DNA from: Candidatus Eiseniibacteriota bacterium
GTDB lineage: Bacteria; Eisenbacteria; RBG-16-71-46
Direction: 5' to 3'
Assembly (NCBI GenBank): GCA_041483195.1
Contig: JBGPFC010000004.1
Location: forward strand, 64,001-128,000
DNA: 64,000 nucleotides
The translations under genes and the position numbers were made by a program. Under the pieces are notes generated by a model, which saw only the letters and a program-made list of their open reading frames with translations, was not told where the DNA came from and made no database searches. Positions 5,656-58,476 of this stretch are shown here, one piece after another (positions within the stretch are counted from its first letter, which is position 1; every line of letters begins with the position of its first letter).

Positions 5656-7085
<1,430 letters not shown>

Positions 7086-7089
<4 letters not shown>

Positions 7090-9242
7090 GCCGGCCGCTC
7101 CCGCCCGGGGGCGACGGCCGCGGCCGGCAGACACACCGACACCGTGGTGCCGGCGCCTAAGCGGCTCTCGATCGTGAGCTCGCCGCCGTGCGCCTCGGCG
7201 ATGCTCCGGCACTGCATGAGCCCGATGCCGAGTCCCGCCGGCTTGGTGGTGGAGAACGGCCGGAACAGCGCGCCGCGCATGAACTCCTCGCTCATGCCGC
7301 GCCCGCTGTCGCGCACGGTCAGCGCGAAATCGCCAGCGCCATTCGGACCGGGCCGCACCACGCCCGTCAGCTCGATCTCCCCATCGCCGTCCAGCGCCTC
7401 CCGCGCGTTGACGAGCAGGTTCGTAACGAGCCGCAGCATCTGAGATCGATCGACCTGCACCGACGTCTCGCGATCACACCGCACTTCGACGCGTGCGACC
7501 GGATGCGCCCCGGCGCTCAGTCCCGCCGCCGCGACCGCATCGTCGAAGAGCGCTCCGAGCGCGCAGGGCTCGGGGTGGACCTCGGTGGGCCGTGCCACGC
7601 TCGAGACCTGGCTCATCAGCTCTCGCAGGTTCGCGACGGTGCGCTCCAGCACGGTGAGCGCGTCGCGCTGAAATTCCGGATCGGACAGGTGCTGGCGCGC
7701 GTTCTCGACAACGAGCGAGAGGCCCGACACGTGGTTCTTGATGTCGTGCAGCACGAAGGACGAGAGACGGTGAAGGGACTCGAGCTGGCGAGTCTCGGCG
7801 AGCTGCTCGGCCTGGCGGGCGAAGCCGAGCGCGGCCGCGATCTGGCGCGACACCGCGCCCAGGAACTGAACGTCCTCCGCCGTGTAGTCCTCCTCGTTCC
7901 GCTTCTCGGACAGCCAGATCAGGCCGACCCGATCGCCGCCGATCGTGAGCGAGGCGCAGACCGCCGCGGACACCGCGCGGATGGCCTCGCGATTCTCCAC
8001 GGCGACCGGAATCAGATCGAGGTCCTGCGCCATCTCGCGGAACACGACCGGCGCCCCCGAGCGCTGAAGCTCCTGCACCAGCGGATTCTCCGGCGCGATC
8101 ACGGGCGGCATCGCCGGCGGGCCATACGCGCGGCGGAAGCCGCCGCCGCGCTCGTCCGCGAGGTAGAGCGCGATGCGCTTGGCCTCGAAGATCGTTCCCA
8201 TCAGGGTCTCGATCTGGCGATACAGATCGTCGGGGCGCGCCGAAGGAGCGATGGCATTCGTCACGCGCTCCCACTCACGACGATAGTCGTAGCGATTCGC
8301 GTAGAAATTGCGATCGATGAACCGCTTGACGGCGCGATTCGCGCGCGGGCTGAGCGTCAGCAGCAACCCGCCCCCTCCCGCCAGCAGATAGAACGCGAGG
8401 CTCACGCCCCGCTTCCATTCGGGGGTGAGGATCGGGACCAGCTTCGAGAGCACGGCCATCGTGAGCAGGAACGCGCCCGCCAGCGTGAGCGAAACCGACG
8501 AGTAGTAGATGACCGGCCGGGCGAGCGGAACGCTCATGTCCGAGAGCCGCCGGCGCGCGAGCGCGAACGAGGTCACGACGCCCGCGCCGAACATCGGCGC
8601 GGCGCTCGCCGCGAGCCACGAGACGCGCACGCCGCCGTAGAGCAATCCCCCGGAGACGACCAGCAGCTCGCTCAGGATCCCCACCAGGAACGCGAGAAAC
8701 ATCGGCCGCAGCCGGCGCTTGGAGGCCGCCGGCGCGGTGCGCAGCGTGCGCTCGATGTTCATCAGCACGGCGACCATCACGACCACGAGATACATGAGGT
8801 AGATCTTGCCCATGCCGGCGAGCACGATCACCCCGCGACCGCCCTGGCCCGCCACCTCGCGAACGATGAAGGGAGTTTCGGACGCGGCGGACATCGCGAC
8901 ACAGCCGATCAGGGCGAGGATCAGGTAGGCCGCCGAGTTCTTGATCTGCGACCAGGGATCCGAGCGAGCCAGCACCACGCTCAGGCTCAGCCACAGCCAG
9001 GAGGCGAGGGCGGAGACCTCGGCGAGATAGGTCGCCCACATGCGCGCGGTCCCGGGAGTGGCGGCCTCGAGGATGCCGAGCGTCCCCGCCTGGAATGCCG
9101 CCATCGACAGGAAGGCCGCCGAGAACACCAGGGTCGTCAGCCAGTGTCCCCGCCGCAGCGTGGCGAGCACGCCGATGACCGCGGCGAGCCAGGCGCTCGC
9201 GACCACCAGCGTCACCTGGATCGGCGATGTCGCGAATTCCAC
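7086..9242 (-). CDS. prsK: PEP-CTERM system histidine kinase (PrsK-like)
   Basis: About 9 TM helices, then FIDRNFYANRYDYRREW (PrsK-type segment), a GAF domain, H-box SSFVLHDIKN, and HATPase LFRPFSTTK-GLGIGL. AGGAGG RBS. Confidence 0.9.
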
Positions 9243-47927: not shown

Positions 47928-47988
47928 TTGACGGGGCGGGTTCGGCTCGGACAATATGCCGACGCATGAACACTTCCTCAAGTATTCA
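47928..47988 (+). promoter_or_regulatory. Promoter plus ArsR/SmtB-type operator palindrome
   Basis: TTGACG 47928 with -10 GACAAT/CAATAT at about 47950-47957. Inverted repeat TGAACACTT-cctc-AAGTATTCA (8/9 match) at 47967-47988, just before the arsR start. Confidence 0.65.
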
Positions 47989-47999
47989 ATCTCGCTGAC

Positions 48000-48452
48000 G
48001 TGTCAGCGCACGCCACCCTCACGCGCGCCCGCGCGCCCGCGCGCCGCGCGCACCGCGCGGAGCCGCGGCCGGAGCCCGCTGGCGTCCGCGCCCAGCGCGT
48101 GCGACGCGCTCTCGAGGACCACGCTCTGGTCGAGCGCCTGTCGCGCACGTTTCGGGCGCTGGGCGATCCGACGCGCAGCAAGCTGGTGTTCGCGCTCTCG
48201 CTCGCGGAGCTGTGCGTGAGCGATCTCGCGCACGCGCTCGGCGCCTCGCTGTCTGCCACCTCGCACCAGCTTCGAATCCTGAGAGACCTCGACATCGTGC
48301 ACGTGAGACGCGAGGGCAAGAGCCAGCTGTACACGCTCAACGAGAAGGCGTTCGGATTCTGCGCGCCGCGGGTGTGCCGCGCGTGGAAGCAGACCCTCGA
48401 AGGCGACGCCGAGCGCGGCGAGGCGCTGGTGCGCTTAGGCCCCCGCCGCTAG
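48000..48452 (+). CDS. ArsR/SmtB family metalloregulator
   Basis: FRALGDPTR, ELCVSDLA, SATSHQLRILR, RREGK..Y; extra C-terminal FCAPRVC. Confidence 0.92.
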   Translation: MSAHATLTRARAPARRAHRAEPRPEPAGVRAQRVRRALEDHALVERLSRTFRALGDPTRSKLVFALSLAELCVSDLAHALGASLSATSHQLRILRDLDIVHVRREGKSQLYTLNEKAFGFCAPRVCRAWKQTLEGDAERGEALVRLGPRR

Positions 48453-48468
48453 CGGGAGACGCACGCCC

Positions 48469-49737
48469 ATGTTCGAAGCCCTGGTCATCACGTTGCGGGA
48501 AGGCGTCGAGGCGGCGCTGGTGCTCGCCCTCGCGCTCGCGCTGCTCGAGCGGCGCGGACTCGGCGTCCTGCGCGGCGCCCTGTTCGCGGGCGCCGGCGTC
48601 GCGCTCGCGGCGTCGGCCGGCATCGCGCTGCTCGCGACCCGCATCACCTGGAACGCCGAGCTGGCCGAGGGTTTCGCGATGCTGGCGGGCGCCGTGCTGG
48701 TGCTCACGCTGGTCGCGTGGATGTGGCGGGCGGCGCCGCGCATGAAGGAGGAGATCGAGGGCGGGATCACGCGCGCGACCGGCGGCGCCCGCGGTGGCGC
48801 GGCCGGCGTGTTCCTGTTCGCGTTCGGCATGGTGCTGCGCGAGGGCGTCGAGACCGCGCTGTTCCTGTCCGCCGCGAGCTTCAACAGCCAGGGCCTCGCG
48901 CTGTGGCTCGGGGCCGCGATCGGTCTCGCGCTCGCCGCGTGCTTCGGCGTCCTGTTCGTGCGCGGCACGCTGCGCGTTCCGCTCAAGCCGTTCTTCTCGC
49001 TCACTTCCGCGGTGCTGCTCCTGATCGCGGCCCAGCTCCTGGTCGGCGGGCTGCACGAGCTGTCCGAGGCGGAGCTGCTGCCATCGAGTCGCGCGGAGAT
49101 GGCGCTGATCGGCCCGCTCGTCAAGAACGAGCTGCTGCTGTTCACCCTCACGGTCGCGCTCGCGGCGGGCTGGCTGCTGTTCGGGCCGATGCGCCGCGCG
49201 GCGTCCACCGGCGCGGCATCCGGAGAGGCGGCGAGCGGCCCCGAGGCCCGGCTGCGGCGCGCCGCGGCGGCCCGCGACGCCGCGCGGCGCCGCTGGACCG
49301 GACTGCTCGCGATCATCGTCGTGGCCTTCCTCGCGACAGCGTTCGCGCAGAGCGCCCGCGTTCCCGATCGCCCTCCCGCGACGCCGCTCGCGGTGGAGGC
49401 GGGCGAAGTGCGCATCGATCCCGCGCCGCTCGACGATCGTCACGCGCACTTCTTCGAGGTCTCGCTCGACGGCGCGACCACCCGGATCTTCGCGATCTCG
49501 GTGGGCGGCGAGCTGCGCACCTGCTTCGACGCATGCGAGATCTGCGGCGACCGCGGATACTTCGAGTCGGGCGGCTCGATGCTGTGCCGCAACTGCTCGT
49601 CTCCGATCGCGCTGTCCACCATCGGCCGCGGCGGCGGCTGCAATCCGATTCCGATTCCGCATCGCATCGAAGCCGGCCGGCTCACGATCTCGGAAGCCGA
49701 CCTGCGCGCCGGACTGCCGCGGCTCAAGGGGCGCTGA
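48469..49737 (+). CDS. FTR1-type iron permease fused to DUF2318 (FetA-like Cys-rich) domain
   Basis: Two REGVE motifs, GLHEL; C-terminal CFDACEIC...CRNC...GGCNPIP. Confidence 0.9.
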   Translation: MFEALVITLREGVEAALVLALALALLERRGLGVLRGALFAGAGVALAASAGIALLATRITWNAELAEGFAMLAGAVLVLTLVAWMWRAAPRMKEEIEGGITRATGGARGGAAGVFLFAFGMVLREGVETALFLSAASFNSQGLALWLGAAIGLALAACFGVLFVRGTLRVPLKPFFSLTSAVLLLIAAQLLVGGLHELSEAELLPSSRAEMALIGPLVKNELLLFTLTVALAAGWLLFGPMRRAASTGAASGEAASGPEARLRRAAAARDAARRRWTGLLAIIVVAFLATAFAQSARVPDRPPATPLAVEAGEVRIDPAPLDDRHAHFFEVSLDGATTRIFAISVGGELRTCFDACEICGDRGYFESGGSMLCRNCSSPIALSTIGRGGGCNPIPIPHRIEAGRLTISEADLRAGLPRLKGR

Positions 49738-49741
49738 GACC

Positions 49742-50998
49742 GTGTTCGCGCGACTGCTCGGCGCATCGTTGCGCGCACGCCGCGGGCGGCTCGCGCTCGC
49801 GCTCACGGCGGTGGCCCTCGGGGTCGCGGTCGCGATCTCACTCGCGACCCTCGCGCTCCAGGTGGGCGACGATCTCGCGCGCTCGCTGCGCGCCGCCGGA
49901 CCGAACTTCGTGGTGCTCCCGGCGGGCGCGCGAATGAGCGTCGATCTCGGCGGTCTCGCCATCGAGCCGGCCCGCGCGGGGCTCACGCTGCCGGAGGCCG
50001 ACGTCGCGCGGCTCAAGGATTCGTTCTGGAAGCACAACGTGCTGGATGCCGCTCCCGAGCTCGCGGTGACGGCCGGCATCGGAGGCACGCCCGCGCGCCT
50101 GATCGGCACCTGGTTCGACCGCGCGATCACGAGCGCCGACGGGCCGTGGAACACGGGGCTCATGCGCCTCCATCCCAACTGGAGCCTCGCGGGACGCTGG
50201 CCGCGCGATGGCGAGGACGAGATCGCGCTGGGCCGCGAGCTCGCGGCTGCGCTCGGCGTCGTCGCCGGCGCTCGCGTCCGCGTCGCGCTCGGCGGGCACG
50301 AAGCACAGTGGCGGGTCACGGCCGTGGTCACGGCGGGCGGGCTCGACGACCGCCGCGCGTGGGCGCCGCTCGATCGGGTGCAGGCGCTGGCCGACCGCCC
50401 GGGCGCGGTCGACCGCATCTGGCTCTCGGCGCTGGTGCGGCCGGCATCGCGCGAGATCGCGCCCGATCCGAAGCGCGATCCGCGCGGCTACGAACGCTAC
50501 ATGTGCACGGCCTATCCATCGGTGGTCGCCCGCGAGCTGGAGGAGCGCCTCGGGGCGGTCGAGGTGCTGCCCATGACCGAGGTCGTGGCGGGCGAGGCCA
50601 GCGTGGTCGAACGCCTCAACCTGCTCATGCTGCTGCTCGCGCTGGCGGCGCTCACCGCATCCGTCCTCGGCCTGCTCTCGACCACGACGGCGGCGGTGGT
50701 CGAGCGCAGCGTGGAGCTCGGATTGCTGCGCGCGCTCGGCGCGTCCGCGGGCCAGATCGCGGCGCTCCTGCTCGGTGAGACGATCATCGTCTCGCTCGCG
50801 GGCGGCGCGCTGGGCTTCTGGCTCGGGAGCCTGGGCGCTGCCGCGATCCGCGGGCAGACGTTCGGCACGGCGGCGCCGATCCAGCCGTTGCTGCTCCCAC
50901 TCGCGCTGATCCTCGCGCTCGCGGTCGCGTGCCTCGGAACGCTCGCGCCGCTGCGACTCGCGTTGCGCCTCGATCCCGCCGCGGTGTTGCGTGGCTAG
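49742..50998 (+). CDS. MacB/FtsX-type ABC permease (Fet-type)
   Basis: TM1, periplasmic domain, then 3 TM helices; FWKHNV, YMCTAYPS, ERSVELGLLRALGA, LDPAAVLRG. Confidence 0.88.
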   Translation: MFARLLGASLRARRGRLALALTAVALGVAVAISLATLALQVGDDLARSLRAAGPNFVVLPAGARMSVDLGGLAIEPARAGLTLPEADVARLKDSFWKHNVLDAAPELAVTAGIGGTPARLIGTWFDRAITSADGPWNTGLMRLHPNWSLAGRWPRDGEDEIALGRELAAALGVVAGARVRVALGGHEAQWRVTAVVTAGGLDDRRAWAPLDRVQALADRPGAVDRIWLSALVRPASREIAPDPKRDPRGYERYMCTAYPSVVARELEERLGAVEVLPMTEVVAGEASVVERLNLLMLLLALAALTASVLGLLSTTTAAVVERSVELGLLRALGASAGQIAALLLGETIIVSLAGGALGFWLGSLGAAAIRGQTFGTAAPIQPLLLPLALILALAVACLGTLAPLRLALRLDPAAVLRG

Positions 50999-52124
50999 CC
51001 CGCGCGCGCGCATGGAGCGCCGGCTGCTGCAGGCGGCGTTGTGGCGCAAGCGCAGCACCGTCGCGCTCGCGATCGTCGCGGTCGCGATCGGGGCGTCGGT
51101 CGCCTCCGCCCTGCTGCATGTCTCGGGCGACGTCTCGCGCAAGCTCACGCGCGAGCTGCGCGCGCTCGGGCCGAATCTGATCCTGGTCTCGAGCCCCGAA
51201 GCCGGGGCCGGCGCGGCCGCGACCGCTTCCGGGTTTCTCGATGAAGGCGTGGCGCGCGAACGCCTGGCCGCGGCCGGCATCGAAGGCGCCGCCCTGCTGG
51301 TGGTGATGGCCCGCGTCGGCGATCAACCGGTGCAGATCGTGGGCGCGGACCTCGCGGCGCTCAGGCGCCTGCACCCGTCGTGGCGGATCGCCGCCGGCGC
51401 GCAGGGTTCGCTCATGGGCGCTCGGCTCATGAAGCGGCTCGCGGTGCGCGCCGGCGATTCGCTCACCGTCGCGTTCGCGGAAGGCGGCAACGTGCTGCGG
51501 CTCCCGGCCGGCGCGCGGCTCGAGGCCGGCGGCGCCGACGACGAAGCCTGGTGGATCCCGCTGGCCGATGCCCAGTCGCTCGCGGGTCTCGAGGGACGCG
51601 TGAGCCTGGTCGAAGCGCGGATCGAGGGCGACGCCGGCGCGGCGGCCGGCACGGTCGCGTCGCTCGAGCGCGGCGGCGGCACGCACGCGCTGTTGCTCCA
51701 CGCGCTCTCCGCGACCGAGGCCGGGCTGCTCGCCCGCATGCGCCGCCTGATGGCGATGGTCACCATCGCCGCGCTGGTGGCGGCCGGGCTCTGCGCGTTC
51801 GGCACCCTCACCGATCTCGCGCTCGAACGGCGCCGCGAGATCGCGCTCATGAAGGCGCTCGGCGCCTCGCGCCGTGAAGTCGTGCGGCAGCTCGTCACCG
51901 AGTCGCTCGCGATCGGGTTGATCGGCGGCCTCTGCGGGTGGCTGCTCGGCCTGTTCTTCGCGCAGGTCATCGGCCGCGAGGTGTTCCACTCCGCGATCGC
52001 CGTGCACTGGCAGGTGCCGCCGTTGGTGCTCGCGCTCTCGCTCGCGATCGCGGGGCTCGCGAGTCTGGGTCCGGTGCAGCTCGCGCTCGCGATCGAACCC
52101 GCCGCCGCGCTGCGGGGGGAATGA
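50991..52124 (+). CDS. MacB/FtsX-type ABC permease (second Fet-type)
   Basis: ELRALGPNLIL, ERRREIALMKALGA, IEPAAALRGE. Confidence 0.88.
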   Translation: MASPRARMERRLLQAALWRKRSTVALAIVAVAIGASVASALLHVSGDVSRKLTRELRALGPNLILVSSPEAGAGAAATASGFLDEGVARERLAAAGIEGAALLVVMARVGDQPVQIVGADLAALRRLHPSWRIAAGAQGSLMGARLMKRLAVRAGDSLTVAFAEGGNVLRLPAGARLEAGGADDEAWWIPLADAQSLAGLEGRVSLVEARIEGDAGAAAGTVASLERGGGTHALLLHALSATEAGLLARMRRLMAMVTIAALVAAGLCAFGTLTDLALERRREIALMKALGASRREVVRQLVTESLAIGLIGGLCGWLLGLFFAQVIGREVFHSAIAVHWQVPPLVLALSLAIAGLASLGPVQLALAIEPAAALRGE

Positions 52125-52125
52125 G

Positions 52126-53211
52126 ATGGCGGCCATCCGGGTCCGACTCGACGGCGTGTCGCGCCACTACGGAAGCCTCAAGGCGCTCGACCGCGTCGAC
52201 CTCGAGATCCGAGCCGGAGAATGGCTCGCGGTGATGGGGCCGTCGGGCTCCGGCAAGAGCACGCTCGTCAATCTGCTGGGCGCGCTCGACCAGCCTACCG
52301 CCGGGCGCATCACCGTCGACGGGATCGACATCACGGCGCTGGGCGAGAGCGAGCGCGGCCGATTCCGGCGCGAGAAGGTGGGCGTGATCTTCCAGCAGTT
52401 CCACCTCTTTCCGTATCTGGACGCGGTCGAGAACGTGATGGTCGCTCAGCATTTTCATTCGGTCGCGGACGAGGGCGAGGCGCTCGAGGCGCTCGCGCGA
52501 GTGGGCCTCGCGGATCGCGCGCGTCATCTGCCCTCCCAGCTCTCGGGCGGCGAGCAGCAGCGGGTGTGCGTCGCGCGCGCGCTCATCAACGCGCCGCGCC
52601 TGATCCTGGCGGACGAGCCCACCGGCAACCTCGACGCCGAGAACGAGGACCGTGTGCTGCGGCTGCTCCAGTCGCTCCACGCCGAAGGCCACACGCTGGT
52701 CACGGTGACCCACGCGGCCAAGGTGGGGAACCTCGCCGATCGCCGCGTCGAGCTGCGGCATGGCGCGCTCGCCGATCTCACCGTGCCCAACGAGGAGATC
52801 GAGCGCCGCTACGACGAGGTGCTGGTGCAGATGTGGACTCTGATCGAAGACCGCCGCGTGCCGGACGCCAACCGGGTGCGCGTGCCCGACGTCGTGGACA
52901 ACCGCCGCACGCTGCTCGGCATGGTCGAGAGCGGCCTCATCCAGCAGGACGGCGCGTCGCTCGACTTCACCCCGCGCGGGCGGATCGCGGCGCGGGACCT
53001 GGTGCGCCGCCGGCGGCTGGCCGAGGTGCTGTTCTCCTCAGCGCTGCATCTCTCGGCCCCCGAGGTCGAGAACGTGGCCTGCCGGATGGAGCACATCATC
53101 GATCCCGAGGTCACGAACTCGATCTGCTCATTCCTCGGACATCCGCGTCAGTGCCCGCACGGCAAGCCCATCCCCTCCGGCCACTGTTGCGAGCTGCCGA
53201 TCATCTCCTGA
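52126..53211 (+). CDS. ABC ATPase (LolD/MacB-type) fused to a DtxR/IdeR-like metal-binding domain
   Basis: GPSGSGKST, FQQFHL, LSGGEQQR, ADEPTGNLD, VTH; C-terminal FTPRG...RRRRLAEVL...ACRMEH...LGHPRQCPHGKPIP..CC. Confidence 0.9.
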   Translation: MAAIRVRLDGVSRHYGSLKALDRVDLEIRAGEWLAVMGPSGSGKSTLVNLLGALDQPTAGRITVDGIDITALGESERGRFRREKVGVIFQQFHLFPYLDAVENVMVAQHFHSVADEGEALEALARVGLADRARHLPSQLSGGEQQRVCVARALINAPRLILADEPTGNLDAENEDRVLRLLQSLHAEGHTLVTVTHAAKVGNLADRRVELRHGALADLTVPNEEIERRYDEVLVQMWTLIEDRRVPDANRVRVPDVVDNRRTLLGMVESGLIQQDGASLDFTPRGRIAARDLVRRRRLAEVLFSSALHLSAPEVENVACRMEHIIDPEVTNSICSFLGHPRQCPHGKPIPSGHCCELPIIS

Positions 53212-53221
53212 GCGCGCGACC

Positions 53222-54058
53222 ATGATCGCCATCGGCTCGCGCGACCTCCCCGCGCTGCGCGCGCCTTACGCCGTGCTCGACGTGCGCGACGACGAAGCCT
53301 TCCGCCGAGGCCACCTCGAGGGGAGCGGCCACGTGCCGGCCGCGGCGCTTCGCGAGCGGCGCGCGGAGCTGCCATCGCGCGAGGCTCCGCTGCTGGTGGT
53401 CGCGGATCTCGGCGCGCGCGCGGCGGCGGCCGCGGCCGACCTCGAATCGCTGGGCTACTCGCGGGTCGCGTGGCTCGACGCGCCGCTCGACGCGGTCGGC
53501 GGCGGGCTCTCGGACCGAGCGCCGGCCGTTCCGCTGTGGCGGCCCGCGCCGTTCCTCGAAGAGGTCCTGCCCCGCCTCCCACGCGCAGGCAAGCCGCGCG
53601 CGCTCGACGTCGCGGCGGGAAGCGGACGGGACTCGGTGTACCTCGCGCTCAACGGCTACGCCGTTGAAGCATGGGACCGCGACGCCGAGGCCCTCGCGCG
53701 GGCCTCCGCGCTCGCCGCTCGCCACGGCGTTTCGATCGAGACCCGCACCATCGATCTCGAGCGCGAGGGGGTGGCGCTTCCCGCCGGGCGCTACGCGCTG
53801 GTGGTCTGCTTCCGCTACCTGCATCGTCCGCTGCTGCCGTCGATCGAGCGCGCGATCGCGCCCGGCGGACATCTCGTGCTCGAGACCTTCCGCGCGGGGC
53901 AGGAACGATTCGGGAAGCCGCAGCGCGAGCGATTCCTGCTGCGGCCCGGTGAGCTGCCGAGCGCGTTCGCGTCGCTCGAGATCGTCCAGTACGCCGAGCT
54001 GGAGCCGGCCGGCGGCCCCGTCACGGCGCGCCTGCTCGCGCGCAAGCCATCGGGCTGA
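53222..54058 (+). CDS. Rhodanese-like domain fused to class I SAM methyltransferase (TehB-like)
   Basis: VLDVR...GHLEGS; ALDVAAGSGRD, FRYLHRPL, PGGHL..ETF, FLLRPGEL. Confidence 0.8.
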   Translation: MIAIGSRDLPALRAPYAVLDVRDDEAFRRGHLEGSGHVPAAALRERRAELPSREAPLLVVADLGARAAAAAADLESLGYSRVAWLDAPLDAVGGGLSDRAPAVPLWRPAPFLEEVLPRLPRAGKPRALDVAAGSGRDSVYLALNGYAVEAWDRDAEALARASALAARHGVSIETRTIDLEREGVALPAGRYALVVCFRYLHRPLLPSIERAIAPGGHLVLETFRAGQERFGKPQRERFLLRPGELPSAFASLEIVQYAELEPAGGPVTARLLARKPSG

Positions 54059-54169
54059 GGTGCGCTCCCCGCCTGAACCAGCGGCCGTCGCCCGATCGAC
54101 CGCGCTGGTCGCGAGGCGATCGGGACGGCGTGCATCCCGGGCCGCACAACGGGTATGCTGCCCCACCCC

Positions 54170-55291
54170 ATGAACCGTTCGCCCTCTCCGATCACGGTGA
54201 CGACCGCCGCGCGCAGGCTCGCGGCGCCGCTGCTCGCGTTCGCCATCGCCTCCTGCGCCAAGGGCGGAGCGCGCGGGCCCGGCGGATTCGCCATGCCGCC
54301 CACTCCGGTCGAGGTCGCGGCGGCCCGGTCGCAGTCCGTGCGGGACCAGTTCCGCGCGCTCGGCAGCATCCAGTCCGACGCCACCATCCAGATCGTCAGC
54401 GAGCTGAGCGCGACCGTGACCTCGCTGCCGTTCGAGGAGGGTCATGCGGCGGCCGAGGGCGCGCTGCTCGCGCAGCTCGACGACCGCGAATTTCGGGCCG
54501 AGGCCGAGCGCGCCGAGGCCCAGCGCGATCAGGCGCGGGCCAACTACGAGCGGGCGCTCAAGCTCGCCGCGCAGAACACCATCTCGCCCCAGGAAGCCGA
54601 GGACGCTCACACCGCGCTCAAGGTGGCGGAGGCCGACGCCGCGCTCGCGGGTGCGCGGCTCGAGAAGACCCGGATTCGCGCGCCGTGGCCGGGGCTGGTC
54701 GGCGTGCGCCGCGTCTCCTCCGGCGCCTACCTCAAGGCGGGTGACGTCATCACCGAGCTCACCCGCGTGGACCAGATGAAGGTCGTGTTCTCCGCGCCGG
54801 AGCGCTACGCCTCGCTGCTGCGTCCCGGGGTCGCGGTCGTCATCACCACCCCGCCCTACCCCGACGAGTCGTTCGCCGGCGACGTCAGCGCGGTCAATCC
54901 GGTCGTGGATCCGCAGTCCCGCTCGATCCAGGTGGTCGCTCGCATCCGCAACGCCGCCGGCAAGCTGCGTCCCGGCATGTCGGCCGACGTCGCGGTCACG
55001 CTCGCCGAGCGCACGCGGGCGCTGGTGGTCCCGGACGAGGCGGTGTTCGCGGAGGGCAATCAGAGCTTCGTGTACGTCGTGAAGGACGACAGCACCGTGA
55101 CGCGCACCGCGGTCGTACTCGGCACGCGCGACTCCTCCCAGGTCGAGATCGTCCGCGGCCTCGCAGCGGGAACCCGGGTGGTGCGGGCCGGATACCAGAA
55201 GCTCTACGAGGGCGCGCACATCATGCCGGTGGCCGAGGCGGGCGAGCCCGCCCCGCGGGGCGGCGGCGCGCCCGCGAAGCACGGCCCATGA
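54170..55291 (+). CDS. RND efflux periplasmic adaptor (MFP) lipoprotein
   Basis: Lipobox AIASC, lipoyl halves, IRAPWPG, LRPGM, VVPDEAV. ATG 54155 lies inside a TATGCT -10 box, so 54170 is preferred. Confidence 0.9.
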   Translation: MNRSPSPITVTTAARRLAAPLLAFAIASCAKGGARGPGGFAMPPTPVEVAAARSQSVRDQFRALGSIQSDATIQIVSELSATVTSLPFEEGHAAAEGALLAQLDDREFRAEAERAEAQRDQARANYERALKLAAQNTISPQEAEDAHTALKVAEADAALAGARLEKTRIRAPWPGLVGVRRVSSGAYLKAGDVITELTRVDQMKVVFSAPERYASLLRPGVAVVITTPPYPDESFAGDVSAVNPVVDPQSRSIQVVARIRNAAGKLRPGMSADVAVTLAERTRALVVPDEAVFAEGNQSFVYVVKDDSTVTRTAVVLGTRDSSQVEIVRGLAAGTRVVRAGYQKLYEGAHIMPVAEAGEPAPRGGGAPAKHGP

Positions 55292-58200
55292 AGCTGAGCG
55301 AGACCTCGATCCACCGTCCGGTGCTCGCGACGGTGATGAGCCTCGCGATCGTGTTGTTCGGCGCGCTCGCCTTCACGATGCTGCCGGTGCGCGAGTACCC
55401 GGACATCGACTCGCCGGTGGTCTCGGTCTCGACCTTCTATCGCGGCGCCAATCCCCAGGTGGTCGAGACCGAGATCACCGACGTGCTCGAGGAACAGCTC
55501 TCGACCATCGAGGGCGTGAAGCTCATCACCTCCTCATCGCAGGAGCAGTTCTCCAACATCACGATCGAGTTCAATCTCAATCGCGACGTCGACAAGTCGG
55601 CCAACGACGTGCGCGACCGGGTGTCGCGGGTGCGCAGCCAGCTCCCGAGCACCTCCGACGAGCCGGTGGTCGCGAAGCAGGACGTCAACGCGCAGCCCAT
55701 CGTGTGGCTCGCCCTCTCCGGGCAGCGGTACTCGACGCTCGAGATCGCGGACGTCGCCAACAACATCCTCTCGGAGAAGCTGCAGCGCCTCGAGGGCGTC
55801 GGCGCGGTGTTCGTGGGCGGCAACCGGCGCTATGCGATGCGCATCTGGATCGATCCCCAGCGGCTCGCCGCCTATGGCCTCACCGTCTCCGATCTGGAGC
55901 GCGCGCTGCGCGCGGAAAACGCGGAGATTCCATCGGGACGCGTCGAGGGCCGCGGCCGCGAGTTCGCGGTGCGCACCCGCGGGGACCTCACCACCCCCGA
56001 GCAGTTCGCGGCGATCGTCGTCTCCCAGCAGGGCGACCGACCGGTGCGCCTCGGCGACATCGCGGTGGTGAAGCTGGGCGCCGAGGACGAGCGCACCATC
56101 GCGCGTTACAACCGCGCGCCGGCGGTGGGCCTCGGCATCGTCAAGCAGCAGAAGGCGAGCACCGTCGAGGTCGCTGACAACGTGCGCAGGGCGCTGCCCG
56201 GGCTGCGCGCGCTGCTGCCCGCCGGGATGGCGCTCGAGGTCGCGTACGACTCTTCGACCTTCATCAAGGACTCCATGCGCGAGGTCGCGCTCTCGCTCGC
56301 GGTGGCGGTGCTCCTGGTGTTCATCGTCATCTTCGTGTTCCTGGGCAGCCTGCGCGCCACGCTGATCCCGGCGGTCGCGATCCCGGTCTCGATCATCGGC
56401 ACCTTCACCGCCACCTACTTCCTCGGCTTCAGCCTCAACATCCTGACGCTGCTCGCGCTGGTGCTCGCGATCGGGCTGGTGGTGGACGACGCGATCGTCA
56501 TGCTCGAGAACATCTACCGCCACATGGAGATGGGCAAGCCGCGGATGCAGGCCGCGCTGGAGGCCGCGCAGGAGATCGGCTTCGCGATCGTCGCGACCAC
56601 CGTGGCGCTGGTCGCCGTGTTCGTGCCGGTGGCCTTCCTCACCGGACGGATCGGCCGGCTGTTCAACGAATTCGGCGTGGCGGTGGCGATCTCGGTGCTG
56701 ATCTCGGGTTTCGTGGCGCTGACGCTCACCCCGATGCTGTGCTCGCGCATCCTGAGGCGGCACACGCTCGGCCACGCGGCGGACGTGCCGGACGATCCGG
56801 AGGCAACGGTCGCCTCCGATGACGCCGGGTTTCCCGCGCGCGGCTGGCGCGCGGCATTCGACCTCGCGTGGGGCCGCTTCGAGCTCGCGTACGCCTCGAC
56901 GCTGCGCTGGGTGGTCCACCACCGCCGCACGGTGCTGGTCGGCGCGCTGGGGGTCACGGCCTCGATCGCCCTCCTGTTCCGCATGCTGCCATCGGAGCTG
57001 GTGCCCAGCGAGGACCGCGGGCTGATCTTCAACATCCTGTTCGCCCCGGAGGGCTCGACGCTCGAATACACGGACCGCTACATGCGGGTCGCGGAGGCCA
57101 TCTACGACGGCGTGCCGGAGAAGGAGAGCATGTTCACCGCGGTGGGGCTCTCGGGCGGCGGCGGCGGCCGCGTGACCGACGGCTTCATGTTCGTGCGGCT
57201 CAAGCGGCCCGATCAGCGCAAGCGTTCGCAGCAGCAGATCGTGACCTCGCTGTTCCCGCGCATGCTCGGCATTCCGGGCGTGCTCGCGATCCCGATCAAC
57301 CCGCCGAGCCTGGGCGGCGGGTTCGGACGGCCGGTGCAGTTCGTGCTGCAGGCCGAGACCTACGACCAGCTCCAGAGCGCGGTCGGGATCATGATGGCCG
57401 AGGCGCAGAAGCTGGGCTACCTGCTCAACCTCGACACCGACCTCAAGCTCAACAAGCCACAGCTCGAGGTGCAGATCGACCGCGACCGCGCGGCCGAGCT
57501 CGGGGTCTCGGTGGCCGACATCGGAAACACGCTCCAGACGCTGCTCGGGGGGAGCCAGGTCACGCGCTTCAAGCTCGGCAACCACCAGTACGAGGTCATG
57601 CTCCAGCTGCCGCCCCGTGACCGCTCCAGCCCCTCGATGATCGACGGGCTCACGGTGCGCGGGCGCGAGGGGCTGGTGCAGCTCGCGAGCGTCGTGAAGG
57701 TGGTCGAGAAGGTCTCGCCCCGCGAGCTCAACCACTTCAATCGCGTGCGCTCCGCGACGCTGGTCGCGAACCTCGCCCCCGGCGTCACCATCGGCAAGGC
57801 GCTCGACGATCTGCGCGGCGTCGCGCGCCGGGCGCTCCCGGCCGGGGTCCGCACCGATCTGGCGGGCGAGTCGCGCGAGTTCGCGGAGTCGAGCGGCGGC
57901 CTCTACTTCCTGTTCGTCATCGCGCTGGTGTTCATCTTCCTCGTGCTCTCCGCCCAGTTCGAGAGCTTCGTGCACCCGCTCACCATCCTGCTCTCGGTGC
58001 CGCTCGCGGTGTTCGGCGCCCTGGTGTCGCTGTACGCGCTCCACATGACGCTGAACATCTACTCGCAGATCGGGCTCATCATGCTGATCGGGCTGGTGAC
58101 GAAGAACTCGATCCTGATCGTCGAATACGCCAACCAGCGGCGCGCGCGCGGGATCGAGCTGATCGAGGCGGTGATGGGCGCCGCGCGCGTCCGGTTGCGT

Positions 58201-58476
58201 CCCATCCTCATGACCACGCTCTGCACGGTGTTCGGCGTGATGCCGATCGCCCTCGGACTCGGCGCCGGCGCAGAGTCCCGCAAGCCGATGGGCGTCGCCG
58301 TGGTGGGCGGCATGCTGTTCTCGACGTTTCTCACGCTGGTGGTGGTGCCGGTGGTGTACACGCTGCTCGCGAGGTGGGCGGGCGCGCCGAAGGCGGTGAC
58401 GGCTCCGGCCCGCGAGACGCCGGACGCTCCCGCCGCCGCCGCCGCGCTTGCGCGCGGCGCGGCCGAACCCTTCTAG
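55288..58476 (+). CDS. RND efflux permease (HAE1/AcrB family)
   Basis: RPVLATV, REYPDID, GLVVDDAIVMLENI, TKNSILIVE, RLRPILMTT. Confidence 0.95.
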   Translation: MKLSETSIHRPVLATVMSLAIVLFGALAFTMLPVREYPDIDSPVVSVSTFYRGANPQVVETEITDVLEEQLSTIEGVKLITSSSQEQFSNITIEFNLNRDVDKSANDVRDRVSRVRSQLPSTSDEPVVAKQDVNAQPIVWLALSGQRYSTLEIADVANNILSEKLQRLEGVGAVFVGGNRRYAMRIWIDPQRLAAYGLTVSDLERALRAENAEIPSGRVEGRGREFAVRTRGDLTTPEQFAAIVVSQQGDRPVRLGDIAVVKLGAEDERTIARYNRAPAVGLGIVKQQKASTVEVADNVRRALPGLRALLPAGMALEVAYDSSTFIKDSMREVALSLAVAVLLVFIVIFVFLGSLRATLIPAVAIPVSIIGTFTATYFLGFSLNILTLLALVLAIGLVVDDAIVMLENIYRHMEMGKPRMQAALEAAQEIGFAIVATTVALVAVFVPVAFLTGRIGRLFNEFGVAVAISVLISGFVALTLTPMLCSRILRRHTLGHAADVPDDPEATVASDDAGFPARGWRAAFDLAWGRFELAYASTLRWVVHHRRTVLVGALGVTASIALLFRMLPSELVPSEDRGLIFNILFAPEGSTLEYTDRYMRVAEAIYDGVPEKESMFTAVGLSGGGGGRVTDGFMFVRLKRPDQRKRSQQQIVTSLFPRMLGIPGVLAIPINPPSLGGGFGRPVQFVLQAETYDQLQSAVGIMMAEAQKLGYLLNLDTDLKLNKPQLEVQIDRDRAAELGVSVADIGNTLQTLLGGSQVTRFKLGNHQYEVMLQLPPRDRSSPSMIDGLTVRGREGLVQLASVVKVVEKVSPRELNHFNRVRSATLVANLAPGVTIGKALDDLRGVARRALPAGVRTDLAGESREFAESSGGLYFLFVIALVFIFLVLSAQFESFVHPLTILLSVPLAVFGALVSLYALHMTLNIYSQIGLIMLIGLVTKNSILIVEYANQRRARGIELIEAVMGAARVRLRPILMTTLCTVFGVMPIALGLGAGAESRKPMGVAVVGGMLFSTFLTLVVVPVVYTLLARWAGAPKAVTAPARETPDAPAAAAALARGAAEPF

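What the first reader, a model, noticed from the sequence alone, without database searches (positions are those of the whole stretch)
52126..53211. ABC ATPase fused to a DtxR/IdeR-like metal sensor that appears to have lost DNA binding: a transporter with a built-in metal switch?
Seen: after a complete ABC ATPase (~220 aa) the frame continues ~140 aa (about 52798-53211) with TLLGMVESGLI..FTPRGRIAARDLVRRRRLAEVL...ACRMEH...LGHPRQCPHGKPIPSGHCC. Known: DtxR reads ...LTxxG...MRKHRLAE...ACRWEH...PxGNPIP. By-eye alignment keeps the Glu83 and Cys102/Glu105/His106 ligand positions, while His79 becomes Arg and His98 becomes Glu. The HTH region (DRRVPDANRVRVPDVVDNRR) is shortened and lacks the SxPTV recognition helix, and the domain carries five Cys. 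Inference: a repressor's metal-binding dimerisation module has been repurposed as a cytoplasmic regulatory domain on the ATPase dimer. It could give feedback (trans-inhibition) by Fe/Mn or an Fe-S cluster, analogous to the regulatory domains on MetN or ModC. I do not know of a characterised example.
Basis: partly seen in the sequence, partly recalled or inferred. Interest (0 to 1): 0.85.

Follow-up and report, generated by a model that had tools for sequence, protein, structure and literature searches.

The report
Iron-transport ATPase with built-in DtxR-type sensor
The ATP-burning subunit of a compact iron-uptake operon in an uncultured soil bacterium ends in a complete but DNA-blind copy of a DtxR-type metal sensor, a conserved and undescribed design that probably lets the transporter measure the cell's own iron level.

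Summary
ORF 52126-53211 (+, 361 aa) is a MacB/LolD/FtsE-type ABC ATPase followed in frame by a DtxR/IdeR-like module (Pfam Fe_dep_repr_C, E 4.5e-24). It is not an artefact. One open frame spans both parts in 33 of 36 related genome loci and 50 of 75 metagenome loci, always in an FTR1::DUF2318-FtsX-FtsX operon. The module is more than the dimerisation domain: it is DtxR domains 1+2 (AlphaFold pLDDT 90.8; Foldseek TM 0.75-0.80 to two-domain IdeR/DtxR), without the SH3 domain. Its helix-turn-helix is degenerate: no PF01325 hit, no helix 2 in the model, and 3 residues fewer than IdeR. The primary-site ligands (E231, C319, E322, H323) are invariant; two ancillary ligands are replaced. The five Cys are not special to the fusion. 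They mark a wider clade whose HTH-degenerate members sit next to feoB and carry that locus's only detected FeoA domain. Both fusion clades have a separate regulator gene at the operon head (ArsR-type here, Fur in acidobacteria). Best reading (about 0.6): a metal-sensing regulatory domain on the ATPase dimer, comparable to MetN or ModC. Metal binding, dimerisation and the effect on ATPase are untested. I found no published description. It is a new variant of a known kind.

The parts
48000..48452 (+). ArsR/SmtB-family regulator gene at the head of the operon. The true start may lie further downstream.
   Evidence: Pfam HTH_5 E 3.3e-14. Nearest solved relative is SmtB 1r1t, E 3.7e-14. Conserved upstream of FTR1 in related loci.
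48469..49737 (+). FTR1 iron permease fused to a FtrD-like/DUF2318 Cys-rich domain (FetM+FetA equivalent)
   Evidence: Pfam FTR1 residues 1-204, E 3.9e-27, and FtrD-like residues 322-416, E 1.3e-24. Two R-E-x-x-E motifs can be read in the translation.
49742..50998 (+). FtsX/MacB-type permease 1 (FetB-like)
   Evidence: Pfam FtsX E 6.8e-15 and MacB_PCD E 1.9e-9
50991..52124 (+). FtsX/MacB-type permease 2 (FetC-like)
   Evidence: Pfam FtsX E 1.1e-18. It ends 1 nt before the ATPase start.
52126..52779 (+). ABC ATPase core (residues 1-218) with Walker A, Q-loop, LSGGE signature, Walker B D163-E164 and H-loop H196
   Evidence: Pfam ABC_tran. The motifs are invariant in alignment A2. The last strand is 214-218 in the full-length model.
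52792..52971 (+). Module domain 1 (residues 223-282): DtxR helix 1, a Pro-rich loop in place of helix 2, a short helix 3, and the wing. This is a degenerate winged HTH.
   Evidence: AF2 secondary structure. No PF01325 hit. Gap-free 44% alignment to the feoB-adjacent stand-alone protein. All gaps against canonical DtxR fall in this part.
52972..53208 (+). Module domain 2 (residues 283-361): DtxR metal-binding/dimerisation domain with a Cys/His-rich end
   Evidence: Pfam Fe_dep_repr_C E 4.5e-24. Foldseek match to IdeR/DtxR.
53080..53094 (+). Codons of C319, R320, M321, E322 and H323. C319, E322 and H323 are the equivalents of the DtxR primary-site ligands; with E231 (52816-52818) they make the presumed sensing site.
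   Evidence: HMMER alignment to IdeR. 100% conserved in 107 close fusions and in 3 distant ones; invariant in A2.
53125..53190 (+). Extra Cys/His cluster: C334, H339, C343, H345, C354, C355
   Evidence: Invariant or >=90% conserved in 88 sequences of A1 and in A2. No solved structure carries it.
53222..54058 (+). Rhodanese + TehB-like SAM methyltransferase gene, 11 nt downstream on the same strand; loosely linked to the operon
   Evidence: Pfam. Found downstream in 30 of 36 related loci, my count from the table.

Best explanation
The gene encodes the ATPase (FetD-like) of a stripped-down Fet-type iron-uptake system: an FTR1 permease fused to DUF2318, two MacB-type permeases, and this ATPase. 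Its C-terminus carries a DtxR-derived two-domain module that no longer reads DNA. I propose that the module acts as a cytoplasmic metal sensor, most likely for Fe2+. Helix 1 of the module starts about 4 residues after the last strand of the ATPase core and contributes E231 to the DtxR-type primary site, together with C319, E322 and H323 of domain 2. Metal binding would fix helix 1 against the dimerisation domain. Because each ATPase in the dimer carries a module, this would constrain how the two ATPase cores can open and close, so that ATP turnover, and with it FTR1-dependent uptake, follows cytoplasmic metal level. That is feedback of the MetNI/ModBC kind. Shown here: the fusion, its conservation, the fold, ligand conservation, the degenerate HTH, separate regulator genes at the operon head, and the kinship with feoB-adjacent sensors. 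Inferred: metal binding, which metal, dimerisation, and the direction of the effect (inhibition when metal is high).
For: Fusion and context. One open frame spans ATPase and module in 33 of 36 genome loci and 50 of 75 metagenome loci; nearly all the rest are cut by contig ends or are stand-alone relatives. FTR1+DUF2318+FtsX+FtsX lie upstream wherever the contig reaches, including 15 of 15 metagenome loci with more than 4.4 kb upstream. A second large clade is labelled Acidobacteriota/Polarisedimenticolia.

Selection. The module is as conserved as the ATPase: mean identity to the column's commonest residue is 0.85-0.88 against 0.85 in 107 sequences.

Fold. pLDDT 90.8; TM 0.75-0.80 and rmsd about 2 A to two-domain IdeR/DtxR.

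Ligands. C319, E322 and H323 are invariant even in fusions only 40-45% identical; D230 is invariant and E231 is >=90% conserved.

Not a classical repressor. No PF01325 hit; only 2 of 88 subfamily members have one. The model has no helix 2. The genome holds two canonical DtxR paralogues with intact recognition motifs.

Separate regulator genes. An ArsR-type gene heads the operon here. A Fur gene takes that place in 15 of 15 acidobacterial-type loci.

Kin. The nearest relatives are feoB-adjacent proteins that carry the only FeoA domain my HMM detected in the locus, in 9 of 9 genome loci and 9 metagenome loci. In 3 of these loci they sit beside a separate canonical DtxR.

Topology. The module sits at the C-terminus of the ATPase core, like the regulatory domains of MetN and ModC (review PMC10710835, passages read).

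Background. In C. jejuni, fetB, fetC and fetD are each needed under iron limitation (PMC10783030, passages read).
Against: There is no experimental datum of any kind. The full-length model gives no confident domain packing (pTM 0.59) and models residues 324-361 poorly with the shallow alignment. The ancillary DtxR site is largely gone in this clade (H79 to R296, H98 to E315) and the SH3 domain that completes it is absent, so activation may differ from DtxR. PgMntR, a DtxR-FeoA protein, does bind DNA (abstract), so kinship with feoB-adjacent proteins does not prove loss of DNA binding. The ex-HTH stretch P254-T262 is about 100% conserved in this clade, which means some surface function persists there. 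The operon head here is an ArsR/SmtB-type regulator; on recalled knowledge these are usually de-repressed by metal excess, which fits an uptake system less obviously than Fur does. The substrate and role of Fet-type ABC units are unknown (PMC10783030), so the direction of any regulation is a guess.
Confidence: 0.6

Rival explanations
1. The module is still a DNA-binding, metal-dependent repressor, so the ATPase doubles as a membrane-tethered transcription factor that autoregulates the operon or an iron regulon.
For: A counterpart of the whole DNA-binding domain, including wing and helix 3, is retained. R260, R261 and T262 at the start of helix 3 are 90-100% conserved. The genome has no Fur at 96.8% completeness. 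PgMntR shows that DtxR-FeoA proteins can bind DNA.
Against: No PF01325 match. The model has no helix 2, and the HTH is 3 residues shorter than in IdeR, 2 of them between IdeR's D35 and G38 in the printed alignment. D255 and D258 occupy positions which, on recalled DtxR-DNA knowledge, contact the DNA backbone. The ex-HTH stretch is poorly conserved in the acidobacterial clade. Two canonical DtxR paralogues are present, and a dedicated regulator gene heads the operon in both clades.
Confidence: 0.12
2. The sensed signal is an iron-sulfur cluster or thiol redox state held by the conserved Cys/His cluster (C334, H339, C343, H345, C354, C355), not a free metal ion at the DtxR primary site.
For: Four extra Cys and two His are invariant or nearly so across 88 sequences. 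No solved DtxR has them. The partner domain DUF2318 is also Cys-rich and proposed to be redox-active or Fe-S-binding (PMC6083913, PMC10783030). A rhodanese gene follows.
Against: The same motif occurs in canonical HTH-bearing two-domain DtxR proteins (L044, L045), so it predates the fusion and may be a structural Zn site. To my (recalled) knowledge the spacing C-x8-C-x10-CC matches no Fe-S motif. The classical primary-site ligands are also invariant.
Confidence: 0.15
3. The module has no sensing role. It is a passive dimerisation or scaffold domain that holds two ATPase subunits together or docks another protein.
For: The ancillary site is degenerate and the SH3 domain is lost. In this clade the ex-HTH surface is highly conserved, as a protein-protein interface would be.
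Against: The primary-site ligands are invariant across clades that share only 40-45% identity in the module, which a mere scaffold would not require.
Confidence: 0.1
4. The fusion is an assembly or gene-calling artefact.
For: Three related loci (L015, L029, L091) have the two parts in different frames.
Against: 83 independent loci have one open frame. 120 of 120 listed protein clusters carry both Pfam domains, in each of two searches.
Confidence: 0.01

Closest known systems
MetN (C2 domain) of E. coli MetNI and ModC (TOBE-type domain) of M. acetivorans ModABC: trans-inhibited ABC transporters
   Same: An extra domain follows the ATPase core at its C-terminus. In the known cases it dimerises under the ATPase dimer, binds the cytoplasmic ligand and restricts ATPase closure (review PMC10710835).
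   Different: The fold is a DtxR two-domain core, not ACT-like/NIL or TOBE. The transporter is MacB/FtsX-type, not a type I importer. The ion sensed would enter through a partner permease (FTR1), not through the ABC unit itself. Nothing has been tested.
DtxR / IdeR (iron-dependent repressors; PDB 1fx7, 2isy, 1bi0 and others)
   Same: Domains 1+2 match by fold (TM 0.75-0.80) and by profile (E 5e-32). Three of four primary-site ligands are identical.
   Different: No recognisable HTH (no PF01325 hit), no SH3 domain, two ancillary ligands replaced, an extra Cys/His cluster, and covalent attachment to an ATPase.
FetD (Cj1663) of the C. jejuni FetMP-FetABCDEF iron-uptake cluster
   Same: An ABC ATPase partnered with two FtsX-like permeases, a DUF2318 membrane protein and an FTR1 permease. 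fetD is needed under iron limitation (PMC10783030; PMC6083913).
   Different: The passages I read describe FetD as an ATP-binding protein and mention no sensor domain. Here P19 is not found in the genome, no thioredoxin genes lie in the operon, and FTR1 and DUF2318 are fused.
feoB-adjacent DtxR-like + FeoA proteins (uncharacterised); PgMntR of P. gingivalis as the nearest studied DtxR-FeoA protein
   Same: Nearest sequence relatives of the module (44% identity, no gaps), with the same Cys/His motif, the same degenerate HTH and a link to an iron transporter.
   Different: They are free proteins with a FeoA/SH3 domain and no ATPase. PgMntR binds DNA (abstract). I did not test whether PgMntR belongs to this Cys-rich clade.
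FbpC of Neisseria gonorrhoeae (ATPase of a ferric-iron ABC importer with a C-terminal regulatory domain)
   Same: An iron-transport ABC ATPase with an added C-terminal domain (PMC2896483; search listing and start of abstract only).
   Different: That abstract describes a domain-swapped C-terminal regulatory domain and does not mention a DtxR fold. No metal-sensing ligand set is known to me.

Membership tests
ABC ATPase, MacB/LolD/FtsE-type | ABC_tran HMM above cut-off, with Walker A, Q-loop, signature, Walker B and H-loop present | tested here: met
   PF00005 E 1.7e-36. Motif residues are invariant in A2. Best NCBIfam rows are MacB, LolD and FtsE, all below their equivalog cut-offs.
DtxR/IdeR/MntR family | Metal-binding/dimerisation domain (PF02742) above cut-off | tested here: met
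   84.7 bits against a cut-off of 27
DtxR/IdeR/MntR family | N-terminal winged-HTH DNA-binding domain (PF01325) with its recognition helix | tested here: not met
   No hit at E<=1; 2 of 88 in the subfamily. No helix 2 in the model. The fold-level counterpart of the domain is present.
DtxR/IdeR/MntR family | Primary metal site (DtxR M10, C102, E105, H106; numbering recalled, alignment) | tested here: met
   C319, E322 and H323 are identical and invariant. M10 is replaced by E231, a plausible ligand.
DtxR/IdeR/MntR family | Ancillary site (H79, E83, H98 plus SH3 ligands) | tested here: not met
   R296, E300, E315; no SH3/FeoA domain
DtxR/IdeR/MntR family | Homodimer through domain 2 | tested here: inconclusive
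   No usable computational result; see Tried and rejected.
DtxR/IdeR/MntR family | Metal-dependent operator binding | not testable with these tools
   Needs EMSA or footprinting.
Fet-type (FetMP-FetABCDEF) iron uptake system | FTR1 permease, DUF2318 protein, two FtsX permeases and an ATPase in one cluster | tested here: met
   conserved synteny
Fet-type (FetMP-FetABCDEF) iron uptake system | Periplasmic P19/FetP iron-binding protein | tested here: not met
   PF10634 gives 0 matches in the 96.8%-complete genome.
Fet-type (FetMP-FetABCDEF) iron uptake system | Thioredoxin-like FetE/FetF | not tested
   None lies between 48000 and 54058. The genome was not searched.
Trans-inhibited ABC transporters (MetNI/ModBC kind) | Extra domain directly after the ATPase core | tested here: met
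   Helix 223-241 follows strand 214-218.
Trans-inhibited ABC transporters (MetNI/ModBC kind) | Ligand binding to the extra domain lowers ATPase activity or transport | not testable with these tools
   Needs biochemistry.

The most novel reading that the evidence does not exclude
A whole branch of the DtxR family gave up DNA binding and became transporter-attached iron sensors. It reaches its target in two ways: through a FeoA/SH3 domain that docks on FeoB, or by direct fusion to the ATPase of FTR1-linked MacB-type ABC units. If so, fast post-translational feedback on iron import, possibly read through a Cys4/His site that holds Fe-S or Zn, would be widespread in uncultured soil and sediment bacteria and archaea. 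The fusion would have arisen once and then spread across phyla.
Probability: 0.35. Interest if true: 0.8.

Novelty: new variant of a known kind. Interest (0 to 1): 0.62.

Why it matters
Feedback on iron import is known almost entirely at the level of transcription (Fur, DtxR). A DtxR-type sensor welded to the motor of an uptake system would be a direct, fast brake. It would add a new fold to the short list of ABC regulatory domains (MetN C2, ModC and MalK-type domains). It also offers a handle on the unsolved role of the FetBCD-type ABC unit. In this four-gene system the sensor shows which cytoplasmic signal the motor listens to, and ligand mutants should give clear phenotypes. The link to feoB-adjacent relatives suggests the same sensor is used on the Feo transporter, whose regulation is poorly understood.

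Tried and rejected
Homodimer of the module (complex prediction, residues 215-361, two copies, alignment A1). The verdict was 'no answer': score 0.03 against a mark of 0.42, and controls were not run. This is no evidence either way.

Full-length AlphaFold model. pTM 0.59, and residues 324-361 fall below pLDDT 50 with the shallow alignment A2. It was useless for domain packing and I used it only for the length of the linker.

ESM Atlas look-up of the module. Best score 0.83, only generic Fe_dep_repr_C clusters, nothing learnt.

Earlier-notes look-ups by place and by sequence returned nothing.

Inverted-repeat scan upstream of the operon. It returned mostly GC-rich chance pairs. By eye I saw no palindrome resembling the DtxR/IdeR operator as I recall it; the AT-rich patch looks ArsR/SmtB-like, also from recall. 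I did not follow this across loci.

Tree backbone. It is unresolved, so the order of events (loss of SH3, fusion) cannot be read from it. The AU test only fails to reject one origin.

Taxon labels other than Eisenbacteria on some close loci (Udaeobacter, Saccharimonadaceae, Limnocylindria, Methylomirabilota, Verrucomicrobiia). At 68-81% identity these could be mis-binned contigs. I did not treat them as evidence of wide transfer.

Literature. Searches found no description of an ABC-DtxR fusion. Only open-access texts are covered, and I did not open supplements.
Full report
**What is there.** The window holds a tight run of genes on the + strand.
- An ArsR/SmtB-type regulator, 48000-48452.
- An FTR1 iron permease fused to a FtrD-like/DUF2318 domain, 48469-49737.
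- Two FtsX/MacB-type permeases, 49742-50998 and 50991-52124.
- The gene in question, 52126-53211, which starts 1 nt after the stop of the second permease.
- A rhodanese-TehB-like methyltransferase gene, 53222-54058, 11 nt further on.

The 361-aa product matches Pfam ABC_tran (residues 21-166, E 1.7e-36) and Fe_dep_repr_C (282-350, E 4.5e-24, 84.7 bits against a cut-off of 27). It has no match to the DtxR DNA-binding domain PF01325 even at E<=1. By NCBIfam the ATPase is nearest MacB, LolD and FtsE, and the tail is nearest DtxR and MntR, all below the curated cut-offs. No curated family covers the fusion or its free relatives.

HMMER aligns the tail with IdeR residues 43-134 (E 1e-10). A profile of the subfamily aligns with IdeR end to end (residues 4-229, E 5e-32). 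Read against the DtxR ligand numbering (recalled), the correspondences are:
- C319, E322 and H323 correspond to C102, E105 and H106.
- E231 takes the place of M10.
- E300 corresponds to E83.
- R296 replaces H79, and E315 replaces H98.

The tail has five Cys. The profile alignment shows the HTH region 3 residues shorter than in IdeR, two of them between IdeR's D35 and G38. 'Shortened' is therefore true but modest.

**Not an artefact, and conserved.** A search with residues 215-361 found 292 protein clusters at E<=1e-3. All 120 listed carry both Pfam domains, and most are 361 aa. In one-genome-per-species contigs, 45 loci encode a relative.
- 36 loci are close (68-87% identity). Most are labelled Candidatus Eisenbacteria MAGs.
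- Of these 36, 33 have one open frame across ATPase and module, 2 have the parts in different frames (L015, L029) and 1 is cut by the contig end.
- The gene order ArsR, FTR1::DUF2318, FtsX, FtsX, fusion recurs wherever the contig reaches.

In a sample of 201 genomes of the phylum, 51 have a module match at E<=1e-30. That is 39 of 86 in the window's own family plus the window's genome, and 21 of 121 among genomes at least 90% complete and at most 5% contaminated. The tool flags one of the 51 (G014) as unpublished. The trait is therefore common but patchy.

**A second clade.** Representatives at 41-50% identity to the module also carry both domains by Pfam: P0128, P0132, P0135, P0149, P0151 and P0194, 6 of the 18 I scanned. 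Searching with the P0149 module gave 2152 clusters at E<=1e-3. The 120 listed all carry both domains, and the named ones are Acidobacteriota/Polarisedimenticolia MAGs.

A metagenome scan returned 75 loci.
- 50 have one open frame over both parts.
- 1 has the parts in different frames.
- In 1 (L097) an ATPase hit below my identity threshold lies directly upstream; I did not score it.
- 10 are stand-alone relatives.
- 11 have the module at a contig end.
- 2 end before the module.

All 15 fused loci with more than 4.4 kb upstream show FTR1, DUF2318 and both FtsX genes. All 15 also have a Fur-family gene directly before FTR1 on the same strand. In the window's clade an ArsR-type gene holds that place, and the window's genome (96.8% complete) gave no Fur match at all.

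**What the module is.** AlphaFold2 on residues 215-361 with an 88-row alignment gives pLDDT 90.8 and pTM 0.85. The model has:
- a long helix 1;
- a Pro-rich loop where DtxR has helix 2;
- a 10-residue helix 3;
- a two-strand wing;
- the three helices of the dimerisation domain.

Foldseek places it on two-domain IdeR and DtxR over 130-147 columns (TM 0.75-0.80, rmsd about 2 A). The tail is thus DtxR domains 1+2 entire, minus the SH3-like third domain, and not only the 'metal-binding dimerisation module'. In the full-length model the last strand of the ATPase core (214-218) is followed after about 4 residues by module helix 1 (223-241). That model says nothing reliable about domain packing (pTM 0.59).

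**Conservation.** Across 107 full-length close relatives the module is as conserved as the ATPase (0.85-0.88 against 0.85).
- C319, E322, H323, E300, C334, H339, C343, H345 and C355 are 100% conserved, C354 99%, and D230 and E231 99%.
- The same residues hold in three distant fusions and are invariant or at least 90% conserved in A2.
- R296 is always Arg in this clade but His in most other members.
- Position 234 is Val here and Glu in most others.

On recalled MntR numbering, these are the two positions that supply MntR's second metal site (E11, H77). This clade seems to have kept only the mononuclear DtxR-type primary site. That is inference.

The ex-HTH stretch P254-T262 is 90-100% conserved in this clade but poorly conserved in the acidobacterial clade. 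I cannot explain the difference. It argues against a shared DNA-reading role and for a clade-specific contact.

**The Cys/His cluster is inherited.** Alignment A1 combines 16 fused modules and 72 free proteins. It shows a large subfamily sharing the cluster C334, H339, C343, H345, C354, C355, in addition to the primary-site Cys/Glu/His. No solved structure carries this motif. Only 2 of the 88 match PF01325, while 88 match PF02742 and 52 match FeoA.

Free members lie directly beside feoB in 9 of 9 genome loci (L037-L045). By an HMM I built from their SH3 columns, they hold the only FeoA domain detected in each locus. Nine more metagenome loci show feoB directly upstream; a tenth (L113) is too short to tell.

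In L043, L044 and L045 a separate canonical two-domain DtxR (PF01325+PF02742) sits in the same cluster. In L044 and L045 that canonical protein also carries the Cys/His motif. The motif is therefore older than the loss of the HTH.

The window's module aligns without a gap to the feoB-adjacent protein of L044 (44% over 129 residues). Against the canonical neighbour it aligns at 32% with 15 gap positions, all in the N-terminal two-thirds and 14 of them in the HTH and wing.

**Tree.** On a 61-row tree (quick IQ-TREE search), a branch with 97% SH-aLRT support separates all 56 HTH-degenerate rows, fused and free, from the canonical ones. The window's clade (99) and the acidobacterial clade (96) are each single groups, and the backbone is unresolved. 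Holding all 23 fused modules together gives a tree 17.3 log-likelihood units better than the free quick search, with p-AU 0.74. One origin of the fusion is not rejected, but it is not shown either.

**The genome's other regulators.** Besides the fusion, the genome has two Fe_dep_repr_C genes. Both translate with canonical recognition-helix motifs of the S-x-P-x-V/L kind. One has an SH3 domain and Glu at the C102 position. The other keeps the Cys/Glu/His primary-site ligand triad. Ordinary DtxR-type transcription factors are thus available, and the operon has its own ArsR-type regulator, whose nearest solved relatives are SmtB, CzrA and CadC.

**How it most likely works.** The operon is a reduced form of the C. 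jejuni FetMP-FetABCDEF system. There fetA (DUF2318) and fetB, fetC and fetD (the ABC unit) are each needed for growth under iron limitation, and the substrate of the ABC unit is unknown (PMC6083913 and PMC10783030; passages read). Here P19 is not found in the genome.

The module sits where MetN and ModC carry their regulatory domains. Those domains pair beneath the ATPase dimer and hold it open when the ligand binds (review PMC10710835, passages read). In DtxR (recalled), the primary site joins helix 1 to domain 2.

Here helix 1 is almost directly continuous with the ATPase core. A metal bound by E231, C319, E322 and H323 would therefore couple the sensor's state mechanically to the ATPase. 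I propose feedback by cytoplasmic Fe2+ on ATP turnover, and so on FTR1-dependent uptake. The sulfur ligand, the Fur-headed sister operons and the iron permease point to iron. The metal, the dimer and the sign of the effect are all inferred.

**Rivals.**
- *Retained DNA binding* (0.12) is disfavoured by the degenerate HTH, the separate regulators and the poor conservation of helix 3 in the sister clade. It is not excluded, because PgMntR, a DtxR-FeoA protein, binds DNA (abstract).
- *Fe-S or thiol-redox sensing through the Cys/His cluster* (0.15) is open.
- *A passive scaffold* (0.1) fits badly with invariant ligands.
- *An artefact* is excluded.

**Prior knowledge.** Five literature searches found no description of an ABC-DtxR fusion. 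The 2023 review of post-translational transporter control lists no such domain in the passages and table rows I read. These searches cover open-access texts only.

Earlier notes of this scan describe the same operon in acidobacterial genomes and DtxR-FeoA partners of FeoB in other genomes. They agree with this reading but are not independent evidence.

**Verdict.** This is a real, conserved and apparently undescribed variant of the 'ABC ATPase with a C-terminal regulatory domain' theme.

Noticed in passing
L037-L045 (matches near 7001-7440; L041 near 892-1179) and L110, L111, L114-L120: Free Cys-rich DtxR-like proteins with a degenerate HTH and a C-terminal FeoA/SH3 domain lie directly next to feoB in 9 of 9 genome loci and 9 metagenome loci. 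They carry the only FeoA domain my HMM detects there. They may be the FeoA subunit with a built-in metal sensor.
   Followed up: partly
L044:7642-8067, L045:7624-8049, L043:4420-4854: Canonical two-domain DtxR genes (PF01325+PF02742) sit in the same feoB clusters as the degenerate ones. Those of L044 and L045 also carry the Cys/His end motif, so the motif predates the loss of the HTH. No solved structure has it.
   Followed up: partly
window 48469-49737: FTR1 permease and DUF2318/FtrD-like domain are fused in one ORF (FetM+FetA equivalents). No P19/FetP (PF10634) is found in the 96.8%-complete genome, so this Fet-like system lacks its usual periplasmic iron-binding protein.
   Followed up: partly
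window 48000-48452; L049-L103 upstream of FTR1: The regulator gene at the operon head differs by clade: ArsR/SmtB-type here, Fur-family in 15 of 15 acidobacterial-type loci. The window's genome gave no Fur match at all.
   Followed up: partly
window 47967-47988 and 47994-48007: In an AT-richer patch before the ArsR-type gene there is an imperfect TGAA...TTCA inverted repeat (ArsR/SmtB-operator-like, from recall) and a perfect 6-2-6 palindrome (GCTGAC GT GTCAGC) that overlaps the listed GTG start at 48000. The true start of the gene is probably further downstream, since tblastn matches to relatives begin at residue 3 at the earliest and mostly at 13-38.
   Followed up: no
window 53222-54058: A rhodanese + TehB-like SAM methyltransferase gene follows the fusion by 11 nt. 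It is found downstream in 30 of 36 related loci (my count), sometimes after an insertion of about 1.8 kb. In the acidobacterial clade it appears in only 3 loci, about 3 kb away.
   Followed up: no
window 52885-52911 (residues P254-T262): The ex-HTH stretch is 90-100% conserved in 107 close relatives, but the equivalent stretch is poorly conserved in 107 acidobacterial-clade fusions. This is unexplained; it may be a clade-specific protein contact.
   Followed up: partly
G000 C16:85412-85621 (-) and C20:46360-46530 (-): Two stand-alone DtxR-family genes with canonical recognition-helix motifs. One has an SH3 domain and Glu at the C102 position (Mn-type by recalled rules). The other keeps the Cys/Glu/His primary-site ligand triad and has a Cys-rich tail. 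They are probably the genome's metal-responsive transcription factors.
   Followed up: partly
L015, L029, L091: In three related loci the ATPase and the module lie in different frames. This may be a frameshift from low-coverage assembly, or a pseudogene.
   Followed up: no
window 54155-58476: An RND efflux pair (a membrane-fusion-protein-like ORF 54155-55291 and a 1062-aa ORF 55288-58476) lies downstream on the same strand. I named them from the translations only and did not scan them.
   Followed up: no
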